Below are positions 9,293 through 54,985 of a stretch of DNA of 56,435 nucleotides, piece after piece (within the stretch, counting starts at the first letter, position 1; each line of letters begins with the position of its first letter). The stretch is taken from positions 1-56,435 of the forward strand of contig DASZZV010000299.1 in NCBI GenBank assembly GCA_035544835.1, in the 5' to 3' direction. Origin of the DNA: Thermoanaerobaculia bacterium. Its GTDB lineage: Bacteria; Acidobacteriota; Thermoanaerobaculia; Gp7-AA8. The notes below the pieces were generated by a model. That model worked only from the letters and a program-made list of their open reading frames with translations. It was not told where the DNA came from and made no database searches. The translations under genes and the position numbers were made by a program.

Positions 9293-11227
9293 ATGAGCAG
9301 CAGGGCCAGCGCCACGTCCGAGAAACTTCTCCGTTCGTATCTCCCACCCATGCTGGCGACGCTGGCCGATCACCCTCCGCGCGATCCCGAGCAGTACGTC
9401 TATGAGATGAAGTACGACGGTTTCCGCGCCCTGGCGTCGCTCCTCGATGGCAACCTCACCTTGTGGAGCCGCAATGGGATCGATCTTTCGGCTCGTTTTC
9501 CGCGAGCGGCCGAGGCAGTTCAGAAGCTCCGCGTCGACAGTGTCGTCCTCGACGGAGAGATCGTAGCGCTCGATGATAAGGGCGCCCCTCGATTTCAGCT
9601 TCTGCAGCGCGGAGCAGCCGAGGATGCCCTCTACTTCGTTTTCGACCTTCTCTACCTCAACGGTCACGACCTCAGAGGAGAGCCGGTCGAGCAACGTCGG
9701 GGTCTTCTCGAGAAGCTGCTGGAGAAACCGCCGAAATTCATTCGTATTGCCGAGCAATTGCTGGAGCCTCCTGATGCCGCGCTCGCCGATGCAGCCAGGC
9801 GCGGTTATGAAGGGCTGATCGCGAAGCGAAAGGGCTCGACATACGAGAACCGCCGATCCAAAGAGTGGTTGAAACTCAAAGCGGTGAACTCTCAAGAGCT
9901 CGCCGTGATCGGCTTCACGGCCAGCAACCACTCCGACCGCGAGATTGGGTCGCTGATGCTCGGGGTGATGGAAGACGGCGCCATGCGATACGCGGGAAAG
10001 GTCGGTAGCGGCTTTTCTGCGAAGGAGCGCGTCCAGCTCAAGAGCGATCTGCTCAAAGATGCGAGCCCTGAGGCAAAGCCGGCCGGAGCCCCGAAGATGC
10101 GAGACGTGACGTGGACCAGGCCCCGAATCGTCGCGCAGGTGCAATTCATGGAGTGGACATCAGACGGCAAGCTGCGCCATCCCTCGCTGCTCGGATTTCG
10201 CTTCGACAAGAAGCCGGCGGAGTGCATTCGCGAGAAGCCGGAGGCGGTTCTGAAGCCCGCACCGAAATCGCCAACGATGGAGAAAACGGTGAAGAAGAGC
10301 GCGACGGTCCGCACCCTGAAAACAGCGAAGACTTCTGCCTCCAGAGATTCAAGGAAGAGCGCCCCGACGATCGTCTTCACGAATCCCGACCGCATTCTCT
10401 ATCCGCGCGACGGCATTACGAAGAAGGACGTCGCGGAGTATTACGCCGCAGTCAGTGATGCGATGCTGCACACCTTGAAGGAGCGTCCGCTGGTGCTCGA
10501 GCACTGGAACAGGGGGATTTCGGCGCCTTCGTGGTTCCATCAGAACATCGCTACGCGCGAGGCCGAGCCGTGGATGTCGCTGGTCGAGACGCCGACCCGA
10601 ACCAGCAACCGCGAAGTTCGCCATCTCGTGGCCGACTCACCCGCTACTCTGCAGTGGCTGGCGCAACATTCTGTTCTCACCGTGCATATGTGGTCGTCGC
10701 GGGCCGGGTCGTTGGAAAGGCCGGACTGGCTGACCTTCGACCTCGATCCGGCCAAGGGAGCGGGGATTGAACAGGCCGTCGACACGGCGCTGGTGTTGCG
10801 CAGACTGTTCGAGGATCTCGAGATTCCGAGCTATCCAAAGACCTCAGGAAAGAGGGGAATTCACCTTTTCGTTCCGCTCGCTCCGGTCTACTCGCATGAG
10901 GAAGCGGTCGAGTTTGCCAGTCGCCTCGGCGAAGCAGTTGCTTCAAAGTTGCCTTACGCGACGGTCGATCGTGCCCTGACCAGGCGGAAGGGCCGCCTGT
11001 ACCTTGACTGTCTGCAGAACGGGTACGGGAAGACGCTGGTCGCTCCCTACTCGCTCCGCGCCGTGGACGGCGCGCCGGTGTCGGCGCCATTGCAGTGGAG
11101 TGAGATCAACAATCGGCTCGATCCCGCTAAATTCAACCTGCGGACGATGCCTGAGCGGCTCGCGAAACTCGGGGATCTCTTTGCTGGTGCCACGGGAAAG
11201 GGAGTCAAGCTTCCTCGAGTGCGATGA
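9293..11227 (+). CDS. ligD: ATP-dependent DNA ligase D, ligase domain plus C-terminal polymerase/primase domain; no phosphoesterase domain recognised
   Basis: Ligase motif I YEMKYDGFR in the N-terminal half, then a Lys/Ser/Thr-rich linker. The C-terminal half has LigD-Pol motifs (PDRILYP..GITK.DV..YY, FDLDP, GKRGIHLFVPL). It starts 5 nt after the kinase stop. Confidence 0.9.
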   Translation: MSSRASATSEKLLRSYLPPMLATLADHPPRDPEQYVYEMKYDGFRALASLLDGNLTLWSRNGIDLSARFPRAAEAVQKLRVDSVVLDGEIVALDDKGAPRFQLLQRGAAEDALYFVFDLLYLNGHDLRGEPVEQRRGLLEKLLEKPPKFIRIAEQLLEPPDAALADAARRGYEGLIAKRKGSTYENRRSKEWLKLKAVNSQELAVIGFTASNHSDREIGSLMLGVMEDGAMRYAGKVGSGFSAKERVQLKSDLLKDASPEAKPAGAPKMRDVTWTRPRIVAQVQFMEWTSDGKLRHPSLLGFRFDKKPAECIREKPEAVLKPAPKSPTMEKTVKKSATVRTLKTAKTSASRDSRKSAPTIVFTNPDRILYPRDGITKKDVAEYYAAVSDAMLHTLKERPLVLEHWNRGISAPSWFHQNIATREAEPWMSLVETPTRTSNREVRHLVADSPATLQWLAQHSVLTVHMWSSRAGSLERPDWLTFDLDPAKGAGIEQAVDTALVLRRLFEDLEIPSYPKTSGKRGIHLFVPLAPVYSHEEAVEFASRLGEAVASKLPYATVDRALTRRKGRLYLDCLQNGYGKTLVAPYSLRAVDGAPVSAPLQWSEINNRLDPAKFNLRTMPERLAKLGDLFAGATGKGVKLPRVR

Positions 11228-20068: not shown

Positions 20069-20980
20069 CTACTGTTTCTCGTCTGTTCGCAAGGCCTCGT
20101 TCTTGATGCGGATCTGCTCGCACTTCGGGAGCCCTGGCTTACCGAGAACGCTCCGCTCCCAGGAGCCATAGGTCGGGTTGGGGATCATGAACCATTTCTT
20201 GCCGAAGTAGTCCCGGTAACGCTCCAGCAACGCCGAACGCTCCTGTAGCGTCTTCCCATTTGCCGGTACGAAATCATTGAGGTCGTCACCGAAGAGAAGG
20301 ATGACGCGGTATTTGTCGGACACGAACCTGCGACGGGAAGTCTTATCCGACGAATTCCAGTCCTCGCGCTCCCCCTGGACCAGGACGGTGTCCACTTGGT
20401 CGTCGATCGGGAAGCCGAGTTTGTTGAGGTTGTCGCGAACCACTTTTTCCATCGAAGCGCGCTGGTTCGTTATGTAGAAAACGGTTACTCCCTGCCCCTG
20501 CGCGAATCGGCAGAAATCGACAGCGCCGTTGATCGCTCGTGAGACCGCTTCATCACGAAAGAGTTGGAAGCGGTCGTCGTTGTGGTTCTCGTGATGTTTG
20601 AGCAGCCGAGCCTGGTAGGCAGAGTTGTCGAGGACCGTCTCGTCGATGTCGAGGATGACCGCCGGCGACTTCCCGGCCGTCGTCTCCTGCTCCGTGGCGG
20701 CGGACCAGCCCGGATCTTTCGCTGCCTCGACGAGCATCTTTTTTCCCCAGCGATAGATCTCCTCGGTAAGGGCTTGATATTCGGCCGAGGTCTGCATCCA
20801 GAGAACACTGTTGAGGTCAGGCTCCACCAGCGAGCAGTCCGGCATCGCGGTTGACGCAACGCCCCCGGCCACGTCGGGAGTCGGAGCCGCGACGGGTCGA
20901 GGCTGCGATGCGGAGTGCGTACAGCACGCCAACAGAAGAAGTGTTACGGCGATGGTGACAAGAGTCTGATTTGATTTCAC
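20069..20980 (-). CDS. class C acid phosphatase / 5'-nucleotidase, lipoprotein e(P4) family (HAD superfamily)
   Basis: Lipobox LLLAC, HAD motif I ILDIDETVLDNS and motif FGDDLNDF. 303 aa. Confidence 0.8.
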   Translation of the reverse strand: MKSNQTLVTIAVTLLLLACCTHSASQPRPVAAPTPDVAGGVASTAMPDCSLVEPDLNSVLWMQTSAEYQALTEEIYRWGKKMLVEAAKDPGWSAATEQETTAGKSPAVILDIDETVLDNSAYQARLLKHHENHNDDRFQLFRDEAVSRAINGAVDFCRFAQGQGVTVFYITNQRASMEKVVRDNLNKLGFPIDDQVDTVLVQGEREDWNSSDKTSRRRFVSDKYRVILLFGDDLNDFVPANGKTLQERSALLERYRDYFGKKWFMIPNPTYGSWERSVLGKPGLPKCEQIRIKNEALRTDEKQ

Positions 20981-20994
20981 GCGAGTCTCCGTTA

Positions 20995-21030
20995 CAAAAA
21001 AAAGGCCACCCGAAATCGGGTGGCCTTTTT
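20995..21030 (-). terminator. rho-independent terminator downstream of the TonB-dependent receptor gene
   Basis: ggccacccg-aaat-cgggtggcc is flanked by A9 on the plus strand (a T9 run after the stem on the minus strand) and by T5 on the other side. Confidence 0.8.
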
Positions 21031-21049
21031 ACCACTGCGATGGAATGCT

Positions 21050-24000
21050 TTAGAAGACGATCTTCGCTGCGACCTGATACTGACGCGGGTCGACGGCCGT
21101 GTTGTAGCTCGTCGGAATGCCGTAGTTCGCATTCTTTGTGATGGTGGTGAACTTGTCCGTAGACGCGGTGTAGTTCACGGTGTACAGCGACTGGTTCGTA
21201 CCGGTGATGAACTGGTTGCTCTGGGCGAGAAGGTTGAAGACCTCGCCGATCAACTCCAGCTGAACACCATGTGTGAGTCCGAAGCGTTTGGAAATGCGGG
21301 CGTCGATGTTGGTCACGGTGGGCTGACGGCGTCCGTTGCGCGAGGCGATATGCGCGCCCTGGGCGTTGAGGAAGTCGGCGAACTGCGGGCGAGTCATGCC
21401 GGCAGCCTTGGTGAGATCGATGATCTGGCCGCTGCTGTCGAGGAAGACCGGGATGTTTCCGGTGATGTTGGAGAGACCGTTCAACGAGAGGCCGCCGCAG
21501 TTGCAGAAGATGTTCTGCGTGTACGGCGCTCCGGACCGGTAGTTATAGATACCGGACACGAAGAAGCCGAAAGGCAGTTCGTAAGTTCCGTCGACGACGA
21601 CGCGATGACGGATGTCGAAATCCGAAGGACCCTGGCTGAGCGAAGGATTGAGCGGATCGAAACGGAAAGAAGAGGAAGTGCTGCGCTCGTTCGATTCCTG
21701 GTCGACCGACTTGGACCAGGTGTAATGAGCGTCCCACGAGAACTTGCTGTTCTCCAGCGCTAGCTTGTGGGTCTCGACGGTGAAGGAGCGATTGTTGGCC
21801 TTCTCGTCCGAGGTATCGGCTAGGACGCTTCCGTAATCCAGATACCGACGGTTCGGGCTGTTGAGGGAGTAAACGGGGAGATTGCCGAACGAGTAGGCTT
21901 GCGCAACGGCGTTGAGCTGGGTCTTTCCCTGAACGTGGGTGAGGCGAGCGTATTCGCCGCTGATACCCGCGCTGTACTGACTGCCAAGTTGCTGCTCGAA
22001 CTGAAGGCTGGAGCGTAGTGACTCCTGAGCCTGAAAGTTGTCGGTGATCGCCTGGATCGAGTTACCCGAAGCTGGCGTTGCTGCGAACTGCGCCGGCGTG
22101 AGGATGTTCGGGAAGGTCGGGCACGGAAGCGCCGTGGTGCAGGGAAGATTGATGAAGGTGAATCCACCGCTGATCTGCGCCAGCGGATTGGCCAGAAGAA
22201 TCGCCGGGAGGTAGTTGTAGAACTTGCCGGTGCCGCCACGGAGAACAGACTTGCCGGTTCCGAAGACGTCGAAGGCGAAACCAAGACGGGGGGCGACGTT
22301 GTTTTTGTCCGACTTGAAGTTGTTCACGAACTCGGGGTACTTCACCGCCGCGAGCGCTGCCTTGGGTTTCGGCATGGTCTGATAGTCGTATCGCAAGCCG
22401 ACATCGACCGTCAAACGGTCGATCAGCTTGAACGAGTCCTGAATGAACGTGCCGTAGGTATTCTGGCTGAAGGGCGTTGCGCCACCGGTCGGTCCGAAGC
22501 CCATCTGGAAACGGCTCGGCTTGTTGGCGATGAAGTCGGCAACTGAAGCGTACGAGTACTGACCGCGAGCAAAGCGCGGGAACATATTGTTGAACTTTTC
22601 GAACAGACCCTCTGCTCCGACCTTCACATTGTGGCGGCCGATGCTCCAGGAAAGGCTGTCCTTGATCTGGTACTTCTTCTCCGTGGTGTTGTTGGGGAGG
22701 AAGTTGATGTTTCCGAAGGTCGCCGTCTGCCCGCTCTGCGTGACGTTGATTTCAGGGAAGCCCTCAGACGTAGGATTGATGGGACGTTCCTGCATTTCGT
22801 ATTGGGCGATCAACTGGTTGAAGATCGAGGGCGTCAGGATCGATTCGGCCTGTCCGACGAGCTGATTGAACTTGTCGGTCTCATTACCCTGGTTCGATGC
22901 GAGCTGGAAGCCGTTCTGATTGTTTGAATTCGTAAATTCGGAATAATTGTCTCGAATCGAGGCGTGGTTCCTGGTTCCGAGGTTGAGGTCGACTTTGCCC
23001 AGATAGGTGTTCTGGTCGAAGGTCTGATCGTAATTGAGCTCCTGGGAGAAGGGATGCCCGACGATATCCTGGAAGCGTGTGAAGAATGCGGCACGGACGT
23101 CCGGCGAGAGGGCCGTGAATTGCGAGCGTGCCGTGAAGTCGCTGGCGATGATCGGAAGCTTCTGGCGCTGGAAGTCAGCGTTTACGAAGAAAAATGCCTT
23201 GTCGCGGACGATGGGACCGCCGGCGGCAAATCCGGGCTGATTCGAATCTTTGCCTCGGAAGCTCTCCGTTGCTTTCTGGCCATGCAGAAACGTCGGACGC
23301 TTCGAGGCCCACTGACCTTTGCGGTAGAAGTCAAAGACTTCACCGTTGACGTTGTTGCTGCCACTCTTGGTGATGGCGTTCAAGGTAGCGCCCACGCCGC
23401 GAGCAAACTCAGCGTTGTACTGCGAGCGAATGACCTGAAACTCTTTGATGGCGGCCTGGGAGAAGGTGAAGGGGGCGCGCGTGCCGCCTGTCTGCTCGCC
23501 GAAAAACTCGGAGTTCGCGTTAGCGCCGTCAATGTTGAAATCGGTCGTAATACCGCGGCCGCCGTTGGCCTGAATACGGCCACCGAAAGCCGCATTGACC
23601 CCGGGAGTCAACTCGGCGAGGGATCGGAAGTCGCGACTGAGGAGGGGAAGATTCTCGATCTGTTTCTCAGTGACCGAGGTCGTCTGACCTGACTGCGTAA
23701 CGTCGACGACCGGGGCGGTCGCCGTTATCGTGATCTCCTCGGAGATCTGTTGGTTGATCTTCAGATCGGTCTTGGTGGTGGTACCGAGAAGAACGGTCAC
23801 TCTGGGGTTGGCAGCTTTGCCAAGTCCTGCCATCTCCCCGGTGACGCTGTAGCGTCCCGGCGGAAGGAGCGCGAGTGAGTAATCACCCGCGGTCTCGGTT
23901 ACGGCGTTACGCGACAGACCGGTATCAGTGTTGGTCGCAGTGATGGTGACGCCGGGGAGAGCTCCCCCCGTGCTATCGGTGACCTTGCCGCTGATGGAGC

Positions 24001-24094
24001 CGGTCGTTGCATTGACCGACTGCGCCGAAGCGCTCACGACAAACAGCGCCAGGCACAACGAAATCGCGACGAAAAGACAGTTGCGGAAACCCAT
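21050..24094 (-). CDS. TonB-dependent outer-membrane receptor with N-terminal carboxypeptidase-regulatory-like domain
   Basis: Signal peptide MGFRNCLFVAISLCLALFVVSASA follows AGGAGGA. An N-terminal GxxxGxV.D..G..LPGV beta-sandwich is followed by plug and barrel, ending in an aromatic residue (KIVF). The track ORF was trimmed to the ATG at 24094. Confidence 0.9.
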   Translation of the reverse strand: MGFRNCLFVAISLCLALFVVSASAQSVNATTGSISGKVTDSTGGALPGVTITATNTDTGLSRNAVTETAGDYSLALLPPGRYSVTGEMAGLGKAANPRVTVLLGTTTKTDLKINQQISEEITITATAPVVDVTQSGQTTSVTEKQIENLPLLSRDFRSLAELTPGVNAAFGGRIQANGGRGITTDFNIDGANANSEFFGEQTGGTRAPFTFSQAAIKEFQVIRSQYNAEFARGVGATLNAITKSGSNNVNGEVFDFYRKGQWASKRPTFLHGQKATESFRGKDSNQPGFAAGGPIVRDKAFFFVNADFQRQKLPIIASDFTARSQFTALSPDVRAAFFTRFQDIVGHPFSQELNYDQTFDQNTYLGKVDLNLGTRNHASIRDNYSEFTNSNNQNGFQLASNQGNETDKFNQLVGQAESILTPSIFNQLIAQYEMQERPINPTSEGFPEINVTQSGQTATFGNINFLPNNTTEKKYQIKDSLSWSIGRHNVKVGAEGLFEKFNNMFPRFARGQYSYASVADFIANKPSRFQMGFGPTGGATPFSQNTYGTFIQDSFKLIDRLTVDVGLRYDYQTMPKPKAALAAVKYPEFVNNFKSDKNNVAPRLGFAFDVFGTGKSVLRGGTGKFYNYLPAILLANPLAQISGGFTFINLPCTTALPCPTFPNILTPAQFAATPASGNSIQAITDNFQAQESLRSSLQFEQQLGSQYSAGISGEYARLTHVQGKTQLNAVAQAYSFGNLPVYSLNSPNRRYLDYGSVLADTSDEKANNRSFTVETHKLALENSKFSWDAHYTWSKSVDQESNERSTSSSFRFDPLNPSLSQGPSDFDIRHRVVVDGTYELPFGFFVSGIYNYRSGAPYTQNIFCNCGGLSLNGLSNITGNIPVFLDSSGQIIDLTKAAGMTRPQFADFLNAQGAHIASRNGRRQPTVTNIDARISKRFGLTHGVQLELIGEVFNLLAQSNQFITGTNQSLYTVNYTASTDKFTTITKNANYGIPTSYNTAVDPRQYQVAAKIVF

Positions 24095-25940: not shown

Positions 25941-28823
25941 ATGTCAGACAATATTCTCGTCGTCGAGTACGAACCTCGCTATACGGATCGGGTCAAGCAG
26001 GCTCTCAGTGGCCAGCCTTATGATGCCGTATTCGTGAAGGATGGGGAGGAAGCCCTGTCGACTCTCGACAAGCGGCAGCCACGTCTCATCGTGATGTCCT
26101 CGGTTCTTCCCAGGATCAGTGCTCCGGAGCTCATCAGGCTGATTCGCAATCGGTCGGACTTCAAAGGGACGCCGATCCTGGTCACCGTGTCCGGCTATAA
26201 CGGCAAGAGCACCAAAGCCGACGCCATGAAGCTCGGCGCGTCCGACATTCTGCCGAAGCCTTATTCGGAAGGGGAGTTTCTTGGCAAGGTGAAACAACTG
26301 CTGGGCGGGGCGTCAAACCAGACCGTGCAACTCGATCTTCGTGAGCTTGGCCTGCTCAATCCCAAACCTGCCGCGGCACCTCCCGGCGGTGGGCAAAAGC
26401 TCACTTCTGACGATATTTTTGGAGACATGGTGGACGATAAGAATCCCGCTGCGATCGCTTCGCGTAAATCTGCGAAGGCCTCGCAGGATCTCGACGACAT
26501 GCTCTCGCAGACACTCTCGGGCGTGCGCGCGGTCAAGAAGAAGCCAGAGGACCAGCGGCCAGATGGCCAGGCGGCTCCCACTCCATCAACACCGGCCGTT
26601 CCCAAACCCGCAAAGCCCAGAAGCACCATCGATGACCTTGTTCAAAACACACTTTCAGGACTCGAGAAACAGAACCGGCCGCGGCCTGCCGCGGAAGCTC
26701 CCGTCGCCGCGCCTCCGCCCGCCACGCCTCGTGTAGCTCCGGTGGCCGCCGCACCTCAAGAGGTACCAGCCCGTCCATCTCCAGCTGCGGCACCTCGTCC
26801 TGCTCCAACGCCCCCTCCAACACTCGTCGATGTGCCCCTTCCGCAGAAGGTGACCATCTCGGCTCCGATCATTGTGCCGAGAGTCGAGCCCGAGAAGCAC
26901 GATGAGAAGGAAAAGGAAGATGTCGACGGCATTCGCTTTGGCCAATACGTACTGAAAGAAAAGATCGCGACTGGCGGAATGGCCGAGGTCTGGAAAGCCC
27001 GGATGCGTGGAGTCGAAGGCTTCCAGAAGATGGTGGCGATCAAGAAGATCCTCCCGCATATGTCCGACAACGAGGAATTCGTCACGATGTTCATTGACGA
27101 AGCCAAGCTGGCGGCGCAGCTCAACCACAACAACATCATTCATATTTATGATCTCGGCAAGATCGCCTCCTCGTTCTACATCGCGATGGAGTTCATCGAT
27201 GGCCGGGATCTGAAGGCCATCCTCAAGCGGGGCGAGGATCGCGGCCAGCCCATGACCATCGAGCTGGCCTTGTTCATCACTTCCAAGATCGCCTCGGCTC
27301 TGGACTACGCCCATCGCAAGCGCGACTTCGATGAGAAGGAAATGGGTCTCGTCCACCGCGATGTGTCCCCGCAGAACGTGCTCATCTCCTACGAGGGCGA
27401 CATCAAGCTCTGCGACTTCGGAATCGCCAAAGCTGCCTCGAAGGCCTCGCACACGATTGCCGGTGCCTTAAAGGGAAAGCTTCAGTACATGTCACCGGAG
27501 CAGGCCCGCGGAAAGAACATCGATCGCCGCTCCGATATCTTCGCCCTGGCCGTCGTTCTGTTCGAGATGCTCACCGGGAGGAAGCTCTTCACTGGCGAAA
27601 GCGAGATGTCGATCCTCGAGCAGGTGCGCGAGGGCCAGGTGCAGACGCCTTCGCACATCAACGATGAGGTGACTCCGGAGATCGACCACATCGTTCACAA
27701 GGCTCTGGAGAAGAATGCTGACGACCGCTATCAGACCGCTGGAGAGATGGCGCGGGACCTCGATGCCGTTCTCTATAGCTTCCGCCCCACGCCGACCAGC
27801 GCGGATCTCGCCATTTTCATGCACCGAATTTATGGCGGTGAGGACGAAGTGGTCGCACCCGTCGAGGAAGTAGCCGCGCCACCGGCTCCGGCAGTAGTCG
27901 CGCCGCCGCCACCACAAAAAGTCACGCCGCACGTCGCTGCTGCCGCCCCTGTACACGTGGCGGCTCTGGTCCCGGTTGCAGTTTCTTCTTCTCCCGAACC
28001 GACATTTTCTTTCGGCGTCCCTGCCGAAGAGAAGAAGGCACCCGTGGCCTTGATCGCCATCGGTGTTCTGGTGGCCGCAGCGGTCATTGGCGGCGTGGTG
28101 ATGGCCACCAGGAAGAGCTCACCAGCGTCGCCGGTCAACTCGCCAGCACAGACCGCGTCGATTCCGGCCGCGACGACTTCTGTTGGCAGCACGGCGGCAC
28201 CCGTCGTTCCGACCACCACAGTTACGACCGCGACAACGGGAACGGCGCTCGGGCAGAATGATCAGGCCCTGATCAACGAGGAAGTCAAGAAGCGGCTCGC
28301 TCAGGAGAAGGCGCGTCTCGACCTGCAGAAGGCAACTCAGACCGCAGCACTGGCCAAGCCTCCCGAAACGAGGCCAGCTGCTCCAACCCTACCGACTCCG
28401 GCCCCGGCTACGCAGACCATAGCGGCGCAGCCGACTCCGGCGCCACCTCCACCGGCTGCGACGCAGACAGTGGCGGAAGCGCGGCCTGAACCGGCCGCTC
28501 CAGCCGCAGCCCGTGTCAAAGAAGGCGACCTCGTCGAACAGGGAGCGGAGGGATTGGAACCGCCGCAACTCATCAAGCTCAGCAAGATGCAGTACCCGCC
28601 GATGGCAAAAGCGCAGAAGGTTCAGGGGCTGGTCGTGGTTCGGGCCCTGGTCTCGGAAACGGGAAAGGTGCTCGAGATCAAAGTGCTGCGAGGAGTGGCC
28701 CAAAACGTGGGTATCAATGAGGCCGCGGCCGAAGCTGTGCGTTCCTCAGCGTTTCGTCCAGCCACCAAGGATGGGGTACACGTGAAGTCGTACTACACGA
28801 TGACTATCCCCTTTAAGCTATAA
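25941..28823 (+). CDS. multidomain protein: pseudo-receiver domain, Hanks Ser/Thr kinase, single TM helix, C-terminal TonB_C-like domain
   Basis: REC-like fold with EYE replacing DD and Ser replacing the acceptor Asp (LIVMSSVLP). Kinase motifs GGMAEVWKA, VAIKK, HRDVSPQN, DFG, SPEQ. TM helix VALIAIGVLVAAAVIGGVVMA. C-terminus is TonB_C-like (YPPMAKAQKVQGLVVVRALVSETGKVLEIKVL...FRPATKDG). The start was set at the ATG at 25941. Confidence 0.85.
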   Translation: MSDNILVVEYEPRYTDRVKQALSGQPYDAVFVKDGEEALSTLDKRQPRLIVMSSVLPRISAPELIRLIRNRSDFKGTPILVTVSGYNGKSTKADAMKLGASDILPKPYSEGEFLGKVKQLLGGASNQTVQLDLRELGLLNPKPAAAPPGGGQKLTSDDIFGDMVDDKNPAAIASRKSAKASQDLDDMLSQTLSGVRAVKKKPEDQRPDGQAAPTPSTPAVPKPAKPRSTIDDLVQNTLSGLEKQNRPRPAAEAPVAAPPPATPRVAPVAAAPQEVPARPSPAAAPRPAPTPPPTLVDVPLPQKVTISAPIIVPRVEPEKHDEKEKEDVDGIRFGQYVLKEKIATGGMAEVWKARMRGVEGFQKMVAIKKILPHMSDNEEFVTMFIDEAKLAAQLNHNNIIHIYDLGKIASSFYIAMEFIDGRDLKAILKRGEDRGQPMTIELALFITSKIASALDYAHRKRDFDEKEMGLVHRDVSPQNVLISYEGDIKLCDFGIAKAASKASHTIAGALKGKLQYMSPEQARGKNIDRRSDIFALAVVLFEMLTGRKLFTGESEMSILEQVREGQVQTPSHINDEVTPEIDHIVHKALEKNADDRYQTAGEMARDLDAVLYSFRPTPTSADLAIFMHRIYGGEDEVVAPVEEVAAPPAPAVVAPPPPQKVTPHVAAAAPVHVAALVPVAVSSSPEPTFSFGVPAEEKKAPVALIAIGVLVAAAVIGGVVMATRKSSPASPVNSPAQTASIPAATTSVGSTAAPVVPTTTVTTATTGTALGQNDQALINEEVKKRLAQEKARLDLQKATQTAALAKPPETRPAAPTLPTPAPATQTIAAQPTPAPPPPAATQTVAEARPEPAAPAAARVKEGDLVEQGAEGLEPPQLIKLSKMQYPPMAKAQKVQGLVVVRALVSETGKVLEIKVLRGVAQNVGINEAAAEAVRSSAFRPATKDGVHVKSYYTMTIPFKL

Positions 28824-28888: not shown

Positions 28889-29119
28889 ATGGCGACTTTG
28901 ACCGATAAACAGCGTGAGTTTTATCAGAGCACTCTCGAGGTCACGAGAGCGGAAGTAAATGATTTGAAAGATCTGATCGAGGAAGAGTTGAGCAAGGTCA
29001 AAGAGCGCATCGCCGACCTCACCAATGCCATCAATGCGGCCAAGCAGATGTATGCGGCGGCCTGTAACCGGCTGGGAATCGAGAATGATCTGGCCGAGGA
29101 AGACGACGAGCAGTCGTAA
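28889..29119 (+). CDS. small acidic coiled-coil protein, unknown function
   Basis: 76 aa, with GAGGGA 7 nt upstream of the ATG. The sequence is helical with heptad character and has an acidic tail EEDDEQS. Confidence 0.5.
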   Translation: MATLTDKQREFYQSTLEVTRAEVNDLKDLIEEELSKVKERIADLTNAINAAKQMYAAACNRLGIENDLAEEDDEQS

Positions 29120-29136: not shown

Positions 29137-30036
29137 GTGCTTAAAAATCTACGACCGACCCTCCCGGGTCGGTTTTTTATTTCGCTTTGCCTCCTCACTC
29201 TTCTGCTTCTGCCGGCATGCCGCCGTCGAGGCAGCGGGTTGAAGGACGACGTCGGGAGAGACGTCGACTTCAGCCCTCCTGCCAGACGAGTGGTCACCAT
29301 CGCCCCGAATGTGACGGAGCTGGCTTTTGCGGTGAAAGCAGGCAATCGCGTTGTCGGCACCGACGATTTCTCGGATTTTCCTGCTGAGGCGGCGAAGCTT
29401 CCGAAGGTCGGAGCTATGGAGCCGAACCTCGAGTCGATTGCCCGGCTCGAACCCGACCTCGTGTTCGCATCGACCTCCGCGAATCGCCCGGGACTTGCCG
29501 AAGCGATGCGCGAGATTCACATACCGCTTTATGTCGTGAAGACGGAGCGTCTATCGCAGATCGCTCCGGCAGCGGCCAGAATTGCCGGAATTCTCGGCGG
29601 CGACGCTTCCATTGCGGCGACCATCGAGAAGGCCATCGCGGCGCAGAAGCGAGTCCGGCCGAAGCCGCCGCGAGTCTTGTTTCTCCTCTGGCCGAATCCG
29701 CTTTACGTGGCAGGTCACGACACTTTCATCGACGACCTCCTCACACTCACCGGCGCAGTCAACGCCGTTCCACCGACGGTGAAGGGATGGCCTCAGTATT
29801 CTCTGGAAGCGCTGATCGCGAATCCGCCCGATCTCATTCTTTTCCCCTCGAAATCTGTGAATCTCGCCACTCTGCAGAAGCAACTGTCGGGCGATTCGCG
29901 AACTGCGACGCTCGAGGTTCTCCACGACGGCCTCATCATCCCGGTCGACGAAAATCGATTCACTCGTCCGGGGCCACGTGTTGCGGAAGCGGCCGCGGAG
30001 CTCAATGCGATACTCGATGGTCTGGAGTTCCGGTGA
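29137..30036 (+). CDS. periplasmic binding lipoprotein of the BtuF/FhuD (cobalamin/iron-siderophore) class
   Basis: Lipobox LLLPAC. RVVTIAPNVTELAFAVKAGNRVVGTDDFSDFP...LPKVG...LEPDLVFAS is typical of Peripla_BP_2 proteins. Confidence 0.8.
   Translation: MLKNLRPTLPGRFFISLCLLTLLLLPACRRRGSGLKDDVGRDVDFSPPARRVVTIAPNVTELAFAVKAGNRVVGTDDFSDFPAEAAKLPKVGAMEPNLESIARLEPDLVFASTSANRPGLAEAMREIHIPLYVVKTERLSQIAPAAARIAGILGGDASIAATIEKAIAAQKRVRPKPPRVLFLLWPNPLYVAGHDTFIDDLLTLTGAVNAVPPTVKGWPQYSLEALIANPPDLILFPSKSVNLATLQKQLSGDSRTATLEVLHDGLIIPVDENRFTRPGPRVAEAAAELNAILDGLEFR
29154..29178 (+). terminator. terminator-like hairpin with T-run lying inside the signal-peptide codons of the binding-protein gene
   Basis: accgaccc-tccc-gggtcggt followed by tttttt, 35 nt after the stop of the small ORF and 17 nt after the GTG at 29137. 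Confidence 0.45.
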
Positions 30037-30038
30037 CG

Positions 30039-31016
30039 ATGGTTCCAGGTAAGACGGAGCTGCGTCGTGGCCTGCTGCTATTGTCGATGGCGCTGATCCT
30101 GTCAATCCTCATTGGTATTTCGGTTGGCGGAACGCGCGTCACGGGAAGCTCCTTCTTCGAAGGCGAGCGAGTCGCACGTCTCATCGTCCTGCAGATTCGA
30201 CTTCCCCGCGTACTGGTTGCCGGATGCGTCGGGGCCATTCTGGCCATGTCCGGTGCGACGTTTCAGACGTTGCTTCGCAATCCGCTCGCCGATCCCTTCG
30301 TGCTGGGAGTATCGGGTGGTGCCGCCTGTGCCGCGGCCATTGCCACGGCACTCGGCTTCGGTCGGATACCGGGGGCGCTCGCGCTGATTGCGTTTGGCGG
30401 TGCGCTAGCCGCAACATTTGTCGTTCTGATGGTTTCCAGACGGCATGGATCTGTTGATTCGGCGCGGCTTCTGCTGGCCGGACTCGTTCTGAACGCCCTG
30501 TTTTCCGCCCTGATTCTGCTGGCCCTGTCGGTGTTGCGAGGGGGAGATCTGACCATGGCGCTTCGGTGGATGATGGGAACTTTCTTCGCCTCGACCGTCG
30601 CAGAAGCGGAGGTTCTGGGGATCGCCCTGACCATCGCCATGGGAGCGTTGTGGTGGATCTCGCGCGACCTGAGACTCCTGAGTTTCGGCGAGGAAGACGC
30701 AAGGGCCAGAGGAGTCAATACCGAGCGCACGAAAGTAATCGCCTTCATCGCGGCCTCGCTGGCCACCGGTGCCGCCGTTTCCGCGGGCGGAATCATCGGC
30801 TTCGTGGGACTTCTCACCCCCCATTTCGTCAGACGCTTCTGGAGCAGCGATTACCGGATCAGCATGCCCCTGGCCGCGCTCGCAGGCGCGGTGCTTCTGA
30901 TCCTGGCCGACGCCCTTTCGCGTGTAGTCGTGGCACCCGCCGAGCTTCCGGTGGGAGCCCTGACGGCGCTTCTCGGAGTGCCTTTTTTCCTCATGCTGGT
31001 GAGGAGATCCGCCTAG
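30039..31016 (+). CDS. FecCD/BtuC-family ABC permease
   Basis: About 9 hydrophobic helices and motifs LPRVLVAG, GVSGGAA, GIIGFVGLLTPH. The start is at ATG 30039 or GTG 30033 (GTGA overlap with the upstream stop). The track's N-terminal extension overlaps the upstream gene. Confidence 0.85.
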   Translation: MVPGKTELRRGLLLLSMALILSILIGISVGGTRVTGSSFFEGERVARLIVLQIRLPRVLVAGCVGAILAMSGATFQTLLRNPLADPFVLGVSGGAACAAAIATALGFGRIPGALALIAFGGALAATFVVLMVSRRHGSVDSARLLLAGLVLNALFSALILLALSVLRGGDLTMALRWMMGTFFASTVAEAEVLGIALTIAMGALWWISRDLRLLSFGEEDARARGVNTERTKVIAFIAASLATGAAVSAGGIIGFVGLLTPHFVRRFWSSDYRISMPLAALAGAVLLILADALSRVVVAPAELPVGALTALLGVPFFLMLVRRSA

Positions 31017-31793
31017 ATGCTCATGAGGCTCGAGGCGGTCGATTTTAGATATGGCGGTGGAACGACGGCGCTTTCGGGGATCGACGTGTCATTCGGCGCG
31101 GGCGAGCTCGTCTGCGTGGCCGGCCGGAACGGCTCAGGAAAGTCGACACTGCTTCGATTGATGAGCCGCATCATCGATCCGACCAGGGGGACGATCTGGT
31201 TCGATGGGGAACCGGTTTCGACGATCGACCGCAGGATGTTCGCGCGCTCGGTCGGCTACCTCGCGCAGAATCCAACCGTTGCCTTTCCGGCGACAGCGCT
31301 GGAGATCGTGCTCTCAGGGAGATCGGCTTACCTGGCCCGATTCGGATGGGAGACTCCGGCTGATCTGGAGCTCGCGCATGCGGCGCTGGCCTCGTGCGAT
31401 GTCGATCGTCTGGCCGGTCGTTACCTCGATGAAATGAGCGGCGGCGAGAAGAAGCGTGTTTTTCTGGCGCGGGTGCTGGTGGGAGCTCCGCGAGTAGTAC
31501 TCCTCGACGAGCCACTCGCAGCCCTCGATTTCGCGCATGTCGAGCAGCTGCTCGGGCTGTTGCGGCGAATCGTCGTGGAGAGGAAGTGCTCGGTCATCTT
31601 CGTGTCTCACGACTTGAGCTGGAGCTCCGCCTGCGCCGACCGGGTTCTGGTTCTCGATGACGGAAAGCTCGTCGGCGATGGCCCGCCGGAGCGAGTTCTC
31701 ACGGTGGAAAATATCGAGAAGCATTTCGGATTCAAAGCGCAGCGGGTTGCGGGAGCCGAGGGACGGCAGTGGATCGTTCCCTACCTTCCTTGA
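31017..31793 (+). CDS. ABC ATP-binding protein (FecE/BtuD-like)
   Basis: Walker A GRNGSGKST, signature MSGGEKKR, Walker B VVLLDEPLAALD, H-loop VSHD. The ATG immediately follows the permease stop. Confidence 0.9.
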   Translation: MLMRLEAVDFRYGGGTTALSGIDVSFGAGELVCVAGRNGSGKSTLLRLMSRIIDPTRGTIWFDGEPVSTIDRRMFARSVGYLAQNPTVAFPATALEIVLSGRSAYLARFGWETPADLELAHAALASCDVDRLAGRYLDEMSGGEKKRVFLARVLVGAPRVVLLDEPLAALDFAHVEQLLGLLRRIVVERKCSVIFVSHDLSWSSACADRVLVLDDGKLVGDGPPERVLTVENIEKHFGFKAQRVAGAEGRQWIVPYLP

Positions 31794-45172: not shown

Positions 45173-46507
45173 ATGATTTCCAAAGTGCTCATAGCGAATC
45201 GCGGCGAGATCGCCCTCCGGGTGATTCTTGCGTGCAAGGAGCTCGGTCTCAAAACGGTGGCTGTTCATTCCGAAGCCGACCGCGACGCCCTTCATGTCCG
45301 CTACGCTGACGACGATGTCTGCATCGGTCCGGCGACATCACGACAGAGCTACCTGAACATTTCCAGTATCGTGGCCGCTGCCGAGATCACCGGCGCCGAC
45401 GCCGTGCATCCCGGCTACGGATTTCTGGCCGAGAACGATCACTTCGCTGAGATTCTGCAGGAGTGTCAGCTCACTTTCATCGGACCGACTCCGGAAGTCA
45501 TACGGCTCATGGGCAACAAAGCAAAAGCGCGTGAGATGGCCAAGAAGGCCGGGGTGCCGATTCTCCCCGGCAGCGAAGGACCGCTCGGCTCGAGTGACGA
45601 GGCCATGGACATCGCCAGGCAAATCGGGTTTCCGATCATCCTCAAAGCGTCTGCCGGTGGCGGCGGCCGCGGCATGCGGATCTGTTGGGATGAAAAAGAA
45701 CTGGTCAACGCCTACGAGACTGCGAGGACCGAGGCAGAGCGCGCTTTCGGTGTCGCTGACGTCTATCTGGAGAAGTATCTCGAACGTCCGCGACATATCG
45801 AGTTTCAGATTTTCGGAGACAACTACGGACGCGTTGTGCATCTTGGTGAACGCGAGTGCTCGATTCAGCGAAGGCATCAGAAACTTCTCGAGGAATCGCC
45901 TTCTCCAGCAATGACCGACGACCTCCGGCAACGCATGGGCGACGCGGCCGTGAAGCTCGCCAAGTCGGTCGATTATACCAACGCCGGCACCATTGAGTTC
46001 CTGGTCCAGGGTGATGAGTTCTTCTTCATGGAGATGAACACGCGCATCCAGGTAGAGCACGCTGTTACCGAGGCGGTCACAGGGATGGACCTCGTGAAGG
46101 AGCAGATTCGGGTCGCAGACGGGCTGAAGCTATCGGTACCGAAGGAGAATATGCGTCTCCGCGGTCACGCCATTGAATTTCGCGTCAATGCCGAGGACCC
46201 AGTGACGTTCGCACCGAATCCTGGAAAAATCACGACCTTCCATTTGCCGGGCGGCCCGGGCATACGTGTCGACACCGCGGCGTATCGCGACTATGTTATT
46301 CCGCCGCACTACGACTCGCTGATTGCCAAACTCATCGCCCACGGTAAGGACAGGGAGGAAGCGATCGAACGGGGGCGGCGCGCCCTGGACATGTTCATCG
46401 TTGAAGGTGTAAAGACATCCATTCCTCTCCACCGAGAGATTCTCATGAATGAGAAGTTCAGGCGCGGTGACTTTTCTACGCGATTCATGGAAGAATTCTC
46501 GCGCTGA
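45173..46507 (+). CDS. accC: acetyl-CoA carboxylase biotin carboxylase subunit
   Basis: [38 protein letters not shown]. 444 aa. Confidence 0.95.
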
Positions 46508-46508
46508 C

Positions 46509-47144
46509 GTGAGACTCCATCGAGATGCTGTTCCTCCTCTCTACGCTCTAACGGACGACGTCGAGGCTTCGCTTCTGACCGAGCGACTGGCCGAGTTGAT
46601 CGCGGCCGGGGTTCGCTGGATCCAGATTCGCTCCAAGAACATCCCCGACGACCAGCTTTACCGGGTTGTTCGCGAAGCTGAGGGGATGATGCCGGCCAAG
46701 GTGATGCTCTTTGTGAATGATCGCGTGGACGTAGCTGTGGCTGCCTCAGCCGACGGCGTCCATCTTGGCAAACATGACCTTCCGCCCGATGCCGCGCGCA
46801 TGGTGGCCGGCGATCGAGAACTGCTCATCGGATGCTCGACTCACTCCGCCGAGGACGCCATAGCCGCTGCAGCGTGTGAAGAAGTCGACTACGTGGCTCT
46901 GGGCCCGATCTTTTCTTCACTCACTAAAAATGTTCGAGAGCCCCTTGGTCTCGACGAGCTTGCCCGGGCCCGTAAGGGAATCGGGAAACCTCTGATTGCC
47001 ATCGGTGGCATCACCGCGGGAAATATCGGAGGCATCATGCAGGCCGGTGCCGATAGCGCGGCGATCATCGCTGCTATCTATGAGCGCGGAACCATTGCCG
47101 AGAATGTGCGAAGGCTGCTCGAGGCGATGGAGAAGGAGCGGTGA
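46509..47144 (+). CDS. thiE: thiamine-phosphate synthase
   Basis: LYALTD, NDRVDVA...ADGVHLG..DL, GCSTH, DYVALGPIF.S.TK, AIGGI. The GTG start lies 1 nt after the accC stop. Confidence 0.8.
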   Translation: MRLHRDAVPPLYALTDDVEASLLTERLAELIAAGVRWIQIRSKNIPDDQLYRVVREAEGMMPAKVMLFVNDRVDVAVAASADGVHLGKHDLPPDAARMVAGDRELLIGCSTHSAEDAIAAAACEEVDYVALGPIFSSLTKNVREPLGLDELARARKGIGKPLIAIGGITAGNIGGIMQAGADSAAIIAAIYERGTIAENVRRLLEAMEKER

Positions 47145-48420: not shown

Positions 48421-48592
48421 TTCCCGCCTCGATCTTTTATGAGGACAGGATGATCTCTTTTGAGGACTGGTCTCGAGCAATCCGGCCCGCGGTTGTGGGA
48501 TAAATCGTTGATTCTGAAATGAATCGTCGCAATGCGCCGGTGGCATGCCGGCCGCACTGCTGACCTCGCAGAATCGATCGGAGAGTTACCGT

Positions 48593-50980: not shown

Positions 50981-51223
50981 ATGGCGACAACGTATCTGTT
51001 CATTTTCTACTGCTTTGAGGCAGGTATCTTTTTCATCGTCATCCCCTGGTCGCGGTTCTGGGCCCTCAATCCGCTCCTGCACTACTCACCTTCGATCGTC
51101 GCACTGACAGATAACAACTACATTCGTGGGCTCATCTCAGGCTTCGGTTTGGTGCACATCATGGTCGGTCTGGTCGACCTGAGCGCGATTGTGGGAAAGC
51201 GCCGGGCGCGAGAAAGAAAATGA
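50981..51223 (+). CDS. small two-TM membrane protein, unknown function
   Basis: 80 aa with two hydrophobic helices and a basic tail KRRARERK. Its stop overlaps the start of the next gene (ATGA). Confidence 0.5.
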   Translation: MATTYLFIFYCFEAGIFFIVIPWSRFWALNPLLHYSPSIVALTDNNYIRGLISGFGLVHIMVGLVDLSAIVGKRRARERK

Positions 51224-54958: not shown

Positions 54959-54985
54959 GCTCCTTTGGCAGAACCTAGCCGAAGG

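What the first reader, a model, noticed from the sequence alone, without database searches (positions are those of the whole stretch)
25941..28823. Pseudo-receiver / Ser-Thr kinase / TM / TonB_C fusion: possible kinase-output cell-surface-signalling transducer
One 960-aa ORF contains six parts in order.
1. A receiver-like domain whose acidic pocket reads EYE instead of DD (ILVVEYEP) and whose phospho-acceptor Asp is Ser (RLIVMSSVLP). The T/S (VTVSG) and Lys (LPKPY) positions remain, so it looks like a pseudo-receiver.
2. A Pro/Ala-rich linker of about 200 aa.
3. A complete Hanks kinase (G-loop, VAIK, HRD, DFG, SPE).
4. One TM helix.
5. A Pro/Thr/Ala-rich spacer.
6. A TonB C-terminal-like domain of about 85 aa.

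TonB_C domains dock on the TonB box of TonB-dependent receptors. Canonical TonB has an N-terminal anchor and works with ExbBD. Here the TM helix is central and the cytoplasmic part is a kinase. That topology resembles a FecR-type transducer whose output would be phosphorylation rather than ECF sigma release.

A TonB-dependent receptor gene (21050..24094) lies about 1.8 kb away on the opposite strand, separated only by rho. I see no exbB, exbD, canonical tonB or ECF sigma gene in the window. The two other receiver domains in the window (12623.., 53210..) are canonical, so the D-to-S change is not a general feature of this genome.
Basis: partly seen in the sequence, partly recalled or inferred. 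Interest (0 to 1): 0.75.

Follow-up and report, generated by a model that had tools for sequence, protein, structure and literature searches.

The report
Membrane kinase with a TonB-like arm
The ORF is a real, widely conserved but unstudied membrane protein kinase of Acidobacteriota that carries a disabled two-component receiver inside the cell and a TonB-like docking arm in the periplasm; it may report outer-membrane transporter activity by phosphorylation, though that function is still only inferred.

Summary
ORF 25941..28823 (+, 960 aa) scores above curated cut-offs for Response_reg, Pkinase and TonB_C and has one strong TM helix (702-721).

It is not a frameshift artefact. More than 120 full-length homologues share the architecture, and at least 503 GTDB species genomes encode a relative (Thermoanaerobaculia, Holophagae, Aminicenantes-labelled MAGs).

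The receiver is a true aspartate-less pseudo-receiver: acidic pair E-Y, acceptor Ser53, and Ser84 and Lys106 kept.

The kinase is PknB-like. Its catalytic-loop Lys is Ser (HRDVSPQN), and a Lys sits in the P+1 loop instead.

The TM helix has no TonB-type Ser/His motif, and no exbBD lies nearby.

The proposed receptor linkage is not family-wide. A TonB-dependent receptor lies upstream in only 21 of 53 testable loci, beyond rho. A BtuFCD-like importer follows in about half.

It is directly downstream in practically every family locus and is followed by a terminator.

My best reading is an envelope-spanning receptor kinase whose TonB-like arm docks on Ton boxes. That step is inferred, not shown.

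Novelty: new variant of a known kind.

The parts
25941..28823 (+). Whole gene: pseudo-receiver / Hanks kinase / TM / TonB_C protein, 960 aa
   Evidence: ORF and translation. Pfam and NCBIfam domain hits above cut-offs. More than 120 full-length homologues with the same Pfam architecture.
25941..26306 (+). Aspartate-less pseudo-receiver (aa 1-122): E9-Y10 replace the DD pair, S53 replaces the phospho-Asp, S84 and K106 are retained
   Evidence: Response_reg 51.2 bits. Residue mapping against solved receivers. Invariance in the family. AlphaFold pLDDT about 75-93 with a (beta-alpha)5 pattern.
26400..26426 (+). Conserved cytoplasmic linker motif LTSxxIFGD (aa 154-162)
   Evidence: T155, S156, F160 and G161 are invariant in A1. 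The motif is also present in the divergent clade and in L083. The surrounding linker is predicted disordered.
26490..26669 (+). Two copies of the short helical motif D-x-D-x-M-L-x-x-T-L-x-G (aa 184-194 and 230-243) within the Pro/Ala-rich linker
   Evidence: D185, T191, L192, G194 and D231, T237, L238, G240 are invariant. AlphaFold predicts helices at 182-192 and 231-238.
26928..27833 (+). Hanks-type kinase domain plus conserved juxta-kinase helix (aa 330-631); PknB-like, catalytic loop HRDVSPQN, P+1 loop G-K
   Evidence: Pkinase 150.7 bits. Best solved relative is M. tuberculosis PknB, E 3e-47, and PknB is also the best fold match. Ser in the catalytic loop and Lys in the P+1 loop co-occur in 143 of 150 representative proteins.
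28044..28103 (+). Single transmembrane helix (aa 702-721), purely hydrophobic, flanked by KK and RK
   Evidence: Hydropathy maximum 2.85 at 702-720. AlphaFold helix 703-721. No conserved polar residue; His occurs in 1 of 46 sequences.
28257..28349 (+). Periplasmic coiled-coil-like helix (aa 773-803) between a Thr/Ala/Ser-rich and a Pro/Ala-rich spacer
   Evidence: AlphaFold helix 773-803. D774, E781, V782 and R785 are invariant. Spacer composition.
28566..28823 (+). TonB C-terminal domain (aa 876-960) with Q884-Y885-P886 and a terminal beta-strand ending FKL
   Evidence: TonB_C 49.3 bits and tonB_Cterm 43.5 bits. Best solved relatives are TonB C-terminal domains (5lw8, E 6.5e-7). pLDDT 89-96.
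28889..29119 (+). Conserved 76-aa partner gene ('sm76'): one long helix (6-62) plus an acidic tail, no TM helix, no known family
   Evidence: Directly downstream of the kinase in 70 of 75 testable loci. The five misses are three broken ORF calls (L050, L070, L082) and the two PEGA-type outgroup kinases. Also present in clade B at 61% identity. No Pfam or NCBIfam family. AlphaFold pLDDT 90.9.
29153..29183 (+). Intrinsic-terminator-like GC hairpin plus T-run, closing the kinase-sm76 unit
   Evidence: Pattern scan. An equivalent hairpin plus T-run about 45-55 nt after the sm76 stop scores -10 kcal/mol or better in 28 of 73 loci, mostly in the near clade, with different stem sequences.
29137..31793 (+). 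BtuFCD/heme/siderophore-class ABC importer (binding protein, FecCD permease, ATPase); an associated neighbour in part of the family only
   Evidence: Peripla_BP_2, FecCD and ABC_tran. Best NCBIfam matches are BtuF, BtuC and heme/corrinoid ATPase, all below equivalog cut-offs. Present downstream in 28-32 of 55 testable loci.
21050..24094 (-). Neighbouring Oar-like TonB-dependent receptor with the Ton-box-like sequence EEITITA; a candidate docking target, linkage clade-specific
   Evidence: CarboxypepD_reg plus OMP_b-brl_4 / TonB_dep_Rec_b-barrel. Signal peptide and EEITITATAP after the N-terminal domain. Upstream in 21 of 53 testable loci.

Best explanation
This is a single-pass, envelope-spanning Hanks-type receptor kinase.

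Shown:
- An N-terminal aspartate-less pseudo-receiver and a PknB-like kinase lie on the cytoplasmic side of one TM helix.
- On the other side, a TonB-style arm of about 240 aa ends in a genuine TonB_C domain. The arm has Thr/Ala and Pro/Ala spacers and a coiled coil.
- The gene forms a conserved two-gene unit with a 76-aa single-helix protein.
- The pair appears as one locus per genome among the loci fetched, across several classes of Acidobacteriota.

Inferred:
- The arm is not energised, because there is no TonB-type TM motif and no exbBD nearby. It docks passively by beta-strand pairing on Ton boxes that TonB-dependent transporters expose when loaded with substrate.
- Docking or clustering, helped by the periplasmic coiled coil, promotes trans-autophosphorylation of the activation loop (S503/T505).
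- The signal passes to cytoplasmic targets. The 76-aa partner is the prime candidate substrate or adaptor.
- The pseudo-receiver acts as a phosphorylation-independent dimerisation or docking module. In the S/T clades it might instead be switched by Ser/Thr phosphorylation at the former Asp site.
- The net effect would be a phosphorylation read-out of outer-membrane nutrient traffic, functionally analogous to cell-surface signalling but without an ECF sigma.
For: - All three domains score above curated cut-offs.
- TonB_C keeps the Q-Y-P motif, the conserved glycines and the terminal strand. It is the most confidently modelled part.
- The TM helix has no conserved polar residue.
- No ExbB or ExbD family appears among the ORFs of at least 150 aa scanned in the window, or within about 10 kb in five annotated loci.
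- The kinase's catalytic residues are invariant. The missing catalytic-loop Lys is matched by an invariant P+1-loop Lys in 143 of 150 representatives. It is closest to PknB.
- At least 503 species genomes encode a relative.
- The partner gene is present in 70 of 75 testable loci.
- A BtuFCD-class importer, which takes up TonB-dependent substrates, follows in about half of loci from more than one deep clade.
- The neighbouring receptor carries a consensus-like Ton box.
- The nearest outgroup kinases swap TonB_C for PEGA repeats. The periplasmic module therefore behaves as an exchangeable sensor.
- Published surveys report that aspartate-less receivers are enriched among Ser/Thr kinase or phosphatase fusions (PMC4395418).
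Against: - There is no direct evidence that this TonB_C binds any Ton box.
- Receptor adjacency is restricted to one sub-clade and lies beyond rho.
- Large clades have purely housekeeping neighbours: ruvC, yebC, accD and folC. That would equally suit a cell-envelope or cell-cycle kinase.
- A terminator separates the kinase unit from the importer.
- The acceptor-site hydroxyl is not universal. Counts among about 97 representative clusters are Ser 56, Asn 16, Ala 7, Thr 5, Asp 5 and Glu 3. This weakens the phospho-switch idea.
- The kinase N-lobe was poorly modelled, and no inter-domain information was available.
Confidence: 0.4

Rival explanations
1. PknB-type envelope or cell-cycle kinase. The TonB_C arm only tethers or positions the kinase at the peptidoglycan or outer-membrane layer, or senses envelope spacing. 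It would be a diderm substitute for PASTA repeats. The output would be control of growth or division through the 76-aa coiled-coil partner, as PASTA kinases act with GpsB or DivIVA-like proteins.
For: - The best NCBIfam and PDB matches are PknB, Stk1 and StkP, including the juxtamembrane and TM region.
- The gene appears as one locus per genome among those fetched and sits among housekeeping genes: rho, relA, ruvC, yebC, accD and folC.
- Its constant partner is a small coiled-coil protein.
- The outgroup uses PEGA repeats in the same position.
- Receptor linkage is not conserved.
Against: - TonB_C retains the motifs of Ton-box-binding TonB domains.
- No peptidoglycan-binding domain was detected.
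- The importer and receptor recur next to the gene in several clades.
- The GpsB analogy rests on my own knowledge, not on any sequence similarity.
Confidence: 0.3
2. A functional TonB paralogue. The protein would be energised by ExbB-ExbD encoded elsewhere and drive uptake through receptors feeding the adjacent BtuFCD-like importer. The cytoplasmic kinase and pseudo-receiver would regulate or report its activity.
For: - The periplasmic layout is TonB-like, with a bona fide TonB_C domain.
- The importer is downstream in 28-32 of 55 loci and a receptor upstream in 21 of 53.
- NCBI annotates relatives as 'TonB family protein'.
Against: - The TM helix is weakly conserved and wholly apolar. It has no Ser/His (SHLS-type) motif.
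- No ExbB or ExbD appears in the window or in annotated flanks.
- The helix follows about 700 cytoplasmic residues.
- A terminator separates the gene from the importer.
- Many clades lack both the importer and the receptor nearby.
Confidence: 0.1
3. A catalytically dead pseudokinase scaffold. Loss of the catalytic-loop Lys (HRDVSPQN) would abolish phosphotransfer, and the protein would act only as a trans-envelope adaptor.
For: Lys-to-Ser in the catalytic loop is invariant in the family. The N-terminal domain is also a 'pseudo' version of an enzyme-like module.
Against: - Every other catalytic residue is invariant: K368, E387, D474, N479 and the DFG motif.
- Loss of the loop Lys covaries almost perfectly with gain of a Lys at the P+1-loop Thr position, in 143 of 150 representatives. 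The canonical representative P0267 has K and T. This looks like relocation, not loss.
- The kinase domain is by far the most conserved part of the protein.
Confidence: 0.05

Closest known systems
PASTA-type receptor Ser/Thr kinases (PknB of M. tuberculosis, PrkC, StkP, Stk1)
   Same: N-in/C-out single-pass topology, with a Hanks kinase, a juxtamembrane segment, one TM helix and an extracytoplasmic sensor. The kinase domain is the closest solved relative (E 3e-47). The best NCBIfam hit covers kinase through TM.
   Different: - No PASTA repeats. The sensor is a TonB-style arm ending in TonB_C.
- An extra N-terminal pseudo-receiver and a 200-aa linker with conserved motifs.
- The catalytic-loop Lys is moved to the P+1 loop.
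- The host is diderm.
TonB (energy transducer of the Ton system)
   Same: A Pro-rich periplasm-spanning spacer and a C-terminal TonB_C domain with the Q-Y-P motif and a terminal beta-strand. It scores above the Pfam and NCBIfam cut-offs and matches solved TonB C-terminal domains.
   Different: - The TM helix follows 700 cytoplasmic residues.
- It lacks the conserved Ser/His motif that couples TonB to ExbBD.
- No exbBD lies nearby.
- It carries a kinase and a pseudo-receiver.
FecR/FecA/FecI-type cell-surface signalling
   Same: The concept is similar: an inner-membrane single-pass protein whose periplasmic part would contact an outer-membrane TonB-dependent transporter, and whose cytoplasmic part passes on a signal.
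   Different: - No FecR domain and no anti-sigma domain.
- No ECF sigma nearby.
- The neighbouring receptor has no STN signalling extension.
- The output would be phosphorylation.
- Contact would be with the Ton box rather than the signalling domain.
Aspartate-less / pseudo-receiver domains (e.g. FrzS, RitR, HP1021-type; PMC4395418, PMC12632262)
   Same: Receiver fold without the phospho-Asp. Ser accounts for about 15% of substitutions at that site. Acidic residue 1 and the Lys are kept while acidic residue 2 is lost, as is typical. Such domains are reported as enriched in Ser/Thr kinase or phosphatase fusions (PMC4395418).
   Different: Here the domain is fused upstream of a membrane receptor kinase with a TonB arm. 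The K-3 aromatic switch residue is Ile. How it is regulated is unknown.
   Same: Single-pass inner-membrane proteins with cytoplasmic regulatory domains and a periplasmic TonB_C-like domain. They are proposed to engage Ton-box-like motifs of outer-membrane partners.
   Different: Those belong to a motility machine powered by a TolQR/ExbBD-like motor and have no kinase. No sequence comparison was made here.

Membership tests
TonB energy transducer family | C-terminal TonB_C domain (PF03544 / TIGR01352) with the YP motif | tested here: met
   49.3 bits against cut-off 24.6, and 43.5 bits against 27.1. Y885 and P886 are invariant. Solved TonB C-terminal domains are the best PDB sequence hits.
TonB energy transducer family | Pro-rich periplasm-spanning spacer between the anchor and the C-terminal domain | tested here: met
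   Residues 804-860 are 28% Pro and 30% Ala. Residues 722-772 are rich in Thr, Ala and Ser. Both are predicted disordered or extended.
TonB energy transducer family | N-terminal TM anchor carrying the conserved Ser/His (SHLS) motif that couples to ExbB-ExbD | tested here: not met
   The TM helix is at residues 702-721, is wholly apolar and weakly conserved. His occurs in 1 of 46 aligned sequences.
TonB energy transducer family | Works with ExbB/ExbD (often encoded adjacently) | tested here: inconclusive
   No MotA_ExbB or ExbD family appears among the ORFs of at least 150 aa scanned in the window, or within about 8-10 kb in seven annotated loci. An ExbD-sized ORF below 150 aa was not specifically scanned in the window. 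exbBD elsewhere in the genome cannot be excluded.
FecR-type cell-surface-signalling transducer | Periplasmic FecR domain and cytoplasmic anti-sigma domain | tested here: not met
   No FecR or anti-sigma family among the Pfam hits at E up to 1.
FecR-type cell-surface-signalling transducer | Partner ECF sigma gene and a receptor with an N-terminal STN signalling extension | tested here: not met
   No sigma-70 or ECF family in the scanned window ORFs. The neighbouring receptor has CarboxypepD_reg but no STN.
Hanks-type (eukaryote-like) Ser/Thr protein kinases | Pkinase fold with the VAIK Lys, alpha-C Glu, HRD Asp, catalytic Asn and DFG | tested here: met
   Pkinase 150.7 bits. K368, E387, D474, N479 and D492-F493-G494 are invariant.
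Hanks-type (eukaryote-like) Ser/Thr protein kinases | Catalytic-loop Lys (HRDxKxxN) | tested here: not met
   The loop is HRDVSPQN, with Ser476 invariant. A Lys at the P+1-loop Thr position (K513) covaries with it in 143 of 150 representatives. Whether it compensates is untested.
PASTA kinases (PknB/PrkC/StkP) | Extracytoplasmic PASTA repeats | tested here: not met
   No PASTA hit. The NF033483 score of 302 bits is below its 450-bit cut-off and covers only kinase through TM.
Response regulator receiver (canonical) | Active-site quintet DD, D, T, K | tested here: not met
   E9, Y10, S53, S84 and K106 by alignment to solved receivers. Invariant in the near clade.
Aspartate-less / pseudo-receiver domains | Recognised as PF00072 with a receiver fold but lacking the phospho-Asp | tested here: met
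   Response_reg 51.2 bits. (beta-alpha)5 secondary structure with high pLDDT. Ser at the D site. The definition follows PMC12632262 and PMC4395418.

The most novel reading that the evidence does not exclude
The family would be a third, previously undescribed route of TonB-box-based trans-envelope signalling. A non-energised TonB-like arm would count substrate-loaded outer-membrane transporters and convert that into Ser/Thr phosphorylation, with a dedicated 76-aa partner as relay.

In addition, the fused receiver would have been rewired so that its former Asp site (Ser or Thr in most clades, Glu in one) is phosphorylated by the attached Hanks kinase. That would be a two-component receiver switched by a eukaryote-like kinase at the canonical site.

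The kinase itself would work with its catalytic Lys relocated from the catalytic loop to the P+1 loop.
Probability: 0.15. Interest if true: 0.85.

Novelty: new variant of a known kind. Interest (0 to 1): 0.6.

Why it matters
Acidobacteriota are abundant soil and sediment bacteria with very large sets of TonB-dependent transporters and almost no experimentally studied signalling.

- If the TonB_C arm really docks on Ton boxes, this widespread family would show that bacteria can read outer-membrane nutrient uptake through Ser/Thr phosphorylation. Known routes use ECF sigma factors or two-component systems. At least 503 species genomes encode a relative.
- The family would also give a natural system for an open question raised in recent reviews, namely how pseudo-receiver domains are switched on and off.
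- The apparent relocation of the catalytic Lys is of interest for kinase mechanism in its own right.
- Even on the conservative reading, the invariant kinase plus 76-aa pair is a well-defined target for first genetics in Holophagae or Thermoanaerobaculia.

Tried and rejected
- Frameshift or two-gene artefact: rejected. More than 120 full-length homologues, and 72 of the 85 family ORFs extracted from the loci, carry kinase plus TonB_C in one frame.
- Conserved receptor linkage: tested by tblastn synteny over 84 non-redundant loci and not found family-wide.
- Riboswitch or other RNA control of the importer or kinase: no Rfam hit at gathering threshold in the window.
- Tandem DNA repeats behind the low-complexity spacers: only one trivial 15-nt, 2-copy match.
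- JGI's label 'ElaB/YqjD/DUF883' for the 76-aa protein: not supported. There is no Pfam or NCBIfam hit, and the protein has no TM anchor.
- The idea that the acceptor-site hydroxyl is universal, and hence a phospho-site: weakened. It is S or T in the near clades, but Asn is common in the divergent clade.
- Fold search with the full-length model returned only kinases and added nothing on TonB_C.
- The full-length AlphaFold model has low overall confidence (pLDDT 59, pTM 0.37) and a badly modelled kinase N-lobe. No domain-domain conclusions were drawn from it.
- Literature searches for kinase-TonB fusions, GltJ and the myxobacterial kinome timed out, and 'TonB_C' + 'Pkinase' found nothing. Absence of prior description is therefore not established.

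Full report
**The observation**

The window has an ATG at 25941 opening a 960-codon frame that ends at 28823. Pfam finds Response_reg (residues 5-117, 51.2 bits, cut-off 30.2). It also finds Pkinase (336-598, 150.7 bits) and TonB_C (882-960, 49.3 bits, cut-off 24.6). NCBIfam agrees: tonB_Cterm scores 43.5 bits against a cut-off of 27.1. The best kinase model is the PknB/Stk1 PASTA-kinase equivalog. It scores 302 bits, below its 450-bit cut-off, and covers only kinase through TM.

Hydropathy gives one strong TM segment at 702-720. AlphaFold places a helix at 703-721. The spacers are rich in Pro, Ala and Thr.

**The pseudo-receiver**

Aligned to solved receivers, the acidic pair is E9-Y10 and the phospho-acceptor is S53. 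The Thr-site residue is S84 and the Lys is K106. EYEP and S53 are invariant among the 120 best homologues. This meets the published definition of an aspartate-less or pseudo-receiver. Published surveys put Ser at about 15% of substitutions at that site. They also report that such domains are enriched in fusions to Ser/Thr kinase or phosphatase modules (PMC4395418; PMC12632262).

The two other receivers in the window are canonical.

**The kinase**

K368, E387, D474, N479 and the DFG motif are invariant. The nearest solved structure by sequence and by fold is M. tuberculosis PknB.

In the PknB alignment the P+1-loop 'GT' is 'GK' here. Across 150 representative clusters, Ser in the loop and Lys in the P+1 loop co-occur in 143. 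The canonical representative P0267 has K and T. I read this as relocation of the Lys rather than loss of activity, but it is an inference.

**The periplasmic arm**

After the TM helix come four elements:
- a Thr/Ala/Ser-rich spacer;
- a conserved helix at 773-803;
- a Pro/Ala spacer;
- a TonB_C domain, modelled at pLDDT 89-96.

The domain keeps Q884-Y885-P886, the conserved glycines and a terminal strand. Its best solved relatives are TonB C-terminal domains (5lw8, 6.5e-7).

The TM helix, by contrast, is apolar and weakly conserved. It has no Ser/His motif. No ExbB or ExbD family was found among the ORFs of at least 150 aa scanned in the window, or in seven annotated relatives' flanks. The protein therefore has TonB's reach and docking domain but not its energy-coupling features.

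**It is a family, not an accident**

All 120 best database hits (50-86% identity) have the same Pfam architecture. Their sources name them 'TonB family protein' from Thermoanaerobaculia or Acidobacteriota MAGs.

A scan of one genome per GTDB species found at least 503 genomes with a relative. My own domain HMMs find the receiver in 77, the kinase in 82 and TonB_C in 72 of the 85 ORFs extracted from the loci fetched. Most exceptions are truncated or broken ORFs.

An exhaustive search of 50%-identity representatives shows dozens of clusters, all scoring above 420 bits. A second large Thermoanaerobaculia clade has a more degenerate receiver (E-Q/P-E; acceptor Ser or Asn). Pfam only sometimes recognises it.

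The closest outgroup consists of two Nitrospirae-labelled MAGs. They have the same kinase subtype but no receiver, and PEGA-like repeats instead of TonB_C. The periplasmic module therefore looks like an exchangeable sensor.

**Genome context**

I compared 84 non-redundant loci by tblastn with the window's proteins.

- A 76-aa ORF (window 28889..29119) lies directly downstream in 70 of 75 testable loci. The five misses are three broken ORF calls (L050, L070, L082) and the two PEGA outgroup kinases. In L050 and L070 the earlier table does place it within about 50 nt of the kinase match.
- It is also present in the divergent clade at 61% identity, while the kinases there are 46% identical.
- It has no Pfam or NCBIfam family. 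It is predicted with pLDDT 91 as one long helix with an acidic tail.
- A GC-rich hairpin plus T-run follows it at 29153-29183. Equivalent hairpins with different stem sequences follow it in 28 of 73 loci, mostly in the near clade. Kinase plus partner therefore look like a bicistronic unit.
- A BtuFCD/heme/siderophore-class ABC importer follows in 28-32 of 55 testable loci, in more than one deep clade.
- The TonB-dependent receptor is upstream in only 21 of 53 loci. It is always beyond rho and sits beside an e(P4)-type phosphatase gene on its own strand.
- Other clades show yebC-ruvC | kinase - partner - accD - folC.
- The neighbouring receptor does have a consensus-like Ton box (EEITITA) after its CarboxypepD_reg domain. 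It has no STN signalling extension.

**Interpretation**

What is shown: a conserved membrane receptor kinase with a cytoplasmic pseudo-receiver, a periplasmic TonB-like arm and an invariant small coiled-coil partner.

What is inferred: the non-energised arm docks on Ton boxes of substrate-loaded transporters. Docking or clustering activates the kinase, and the partner or other targets relay the signal. I give this 0.4.

The rivals, in order:
- A PknB-like envelope or growth kinase that uses TonB_C as a tether or spacer sensor (0.3). The housekeeping context and the coiled-coil partner favour it.
- A true, ExbBD-driven TonB paralogue (0.1). The TM helix and the missing exbBD argue against it.
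- A dead pseudokinase (0.05). The invariant catalytic residues and the Lys covariation argue against it.

The FecR analogy is functional at best, because every defining feature of that family tested here is absent.

The attractive idea that the former Asp site is phosphorylated by the fused kinase gets mixed support. The site is Ser or Thr in most near-clade loci and Glu in one distant group. But Asn is common in the divergent clade.

**Novelty and limits**

Databases annotate the family only as 'TonB family protein', and I found no description of it. However, most literature searches timed out, so prior work cannot be excluded.

Each of the three modules belongs to a known family. Their combination, the conserved partner and the kinase's swapped Lys make this a new variant of a known kind (receptor Ser/Thr kinases). 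It is not a categorically new system.

No binding, activity or phenotype data exist. The full-length model was too weak (pLDDT 59) to say anything about domain contacts.

Noticed in passing
window 28889-29119 (+): A 76-aa single-helix protein with an acidic tail and a conserved Cys59. It has no known family and is the only invariant neighbour of the kinase across all clades. It is more conserved than the kinase overall (61% against 46% identity to clade B).
   Followed up: yes
window 27354-27377 (HRDVSPQN, aa 472-479) and 27474-27479 (G512-K513): The catalytic-loop Lys is replaced by Ser, and the P+1-loop Thr is replaced by Lys. The two changes covary in 143 of 150 representative kinases, which suggests a relocated catalytic Lys.
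   Followed up: partly
L080:4983-7058 and L081:1520-3577: The nearest outgroup kinases (Nitrospirae-labelled MAGs) share the KIATGGMAE / HRDVSPQN kinase and a TM helix. They have no receiver, no 76-aa partner, and three PEGA-like repeats where TonB_C would be.
   Followed up: partly
L086:8001-11418, L087:8001-11529, L041, L060, L069: A second large Thermoanaerobaculia clade and the Holophagae have a degenerate receiver (acceptor Ser or Asn). Their context is yebC-ruvC | kinase - 77-aa gene - accD - folC, with no receptor or importer nearby.
   Followed up: partly
window 29137-29183: The longest ORF for the periplasmic binding protein starts at a GTG at 29137. It runs through the terminator-like hairpin at 29153-29183. 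Either the hairpin lies inside the 5' end of that gene or the true start is further downstream.
   Followed up: no
window 20069-24094 (-): The Oar-like TonB-dependent receptor lies next to an e(P4)-family 5'-nucleotidase or acid phosphatase lipoprotein gene on the same strand. In relative L004 a phosphodiesterase gene lies alongside them. This looks like an organic-phosphate scavenging module independent of the kinase.
   Followed up: partly
window 48545-50782 (+): A 745-aa protein with a FecR domain and DUF6600, with no adjacent ECF sigma or receptor.
   Followed up: no
window 54965-56167 (+): An IS-type transposase (rve integrase core plus HTH) at the window edge.
   Followed up: no
window 46449-47144 and 51220-51810 (+): Two thiamine-phosphate synthase (TMP-TENI) paralogues lie within 5 kb of each other.
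   Followed up: no
window 9293-11227 (+): A LigD-type fusion of ATP-dependent DNA ligase and primase-polymerase (NHEJ), noted only from Pfam.
   Followed up: no
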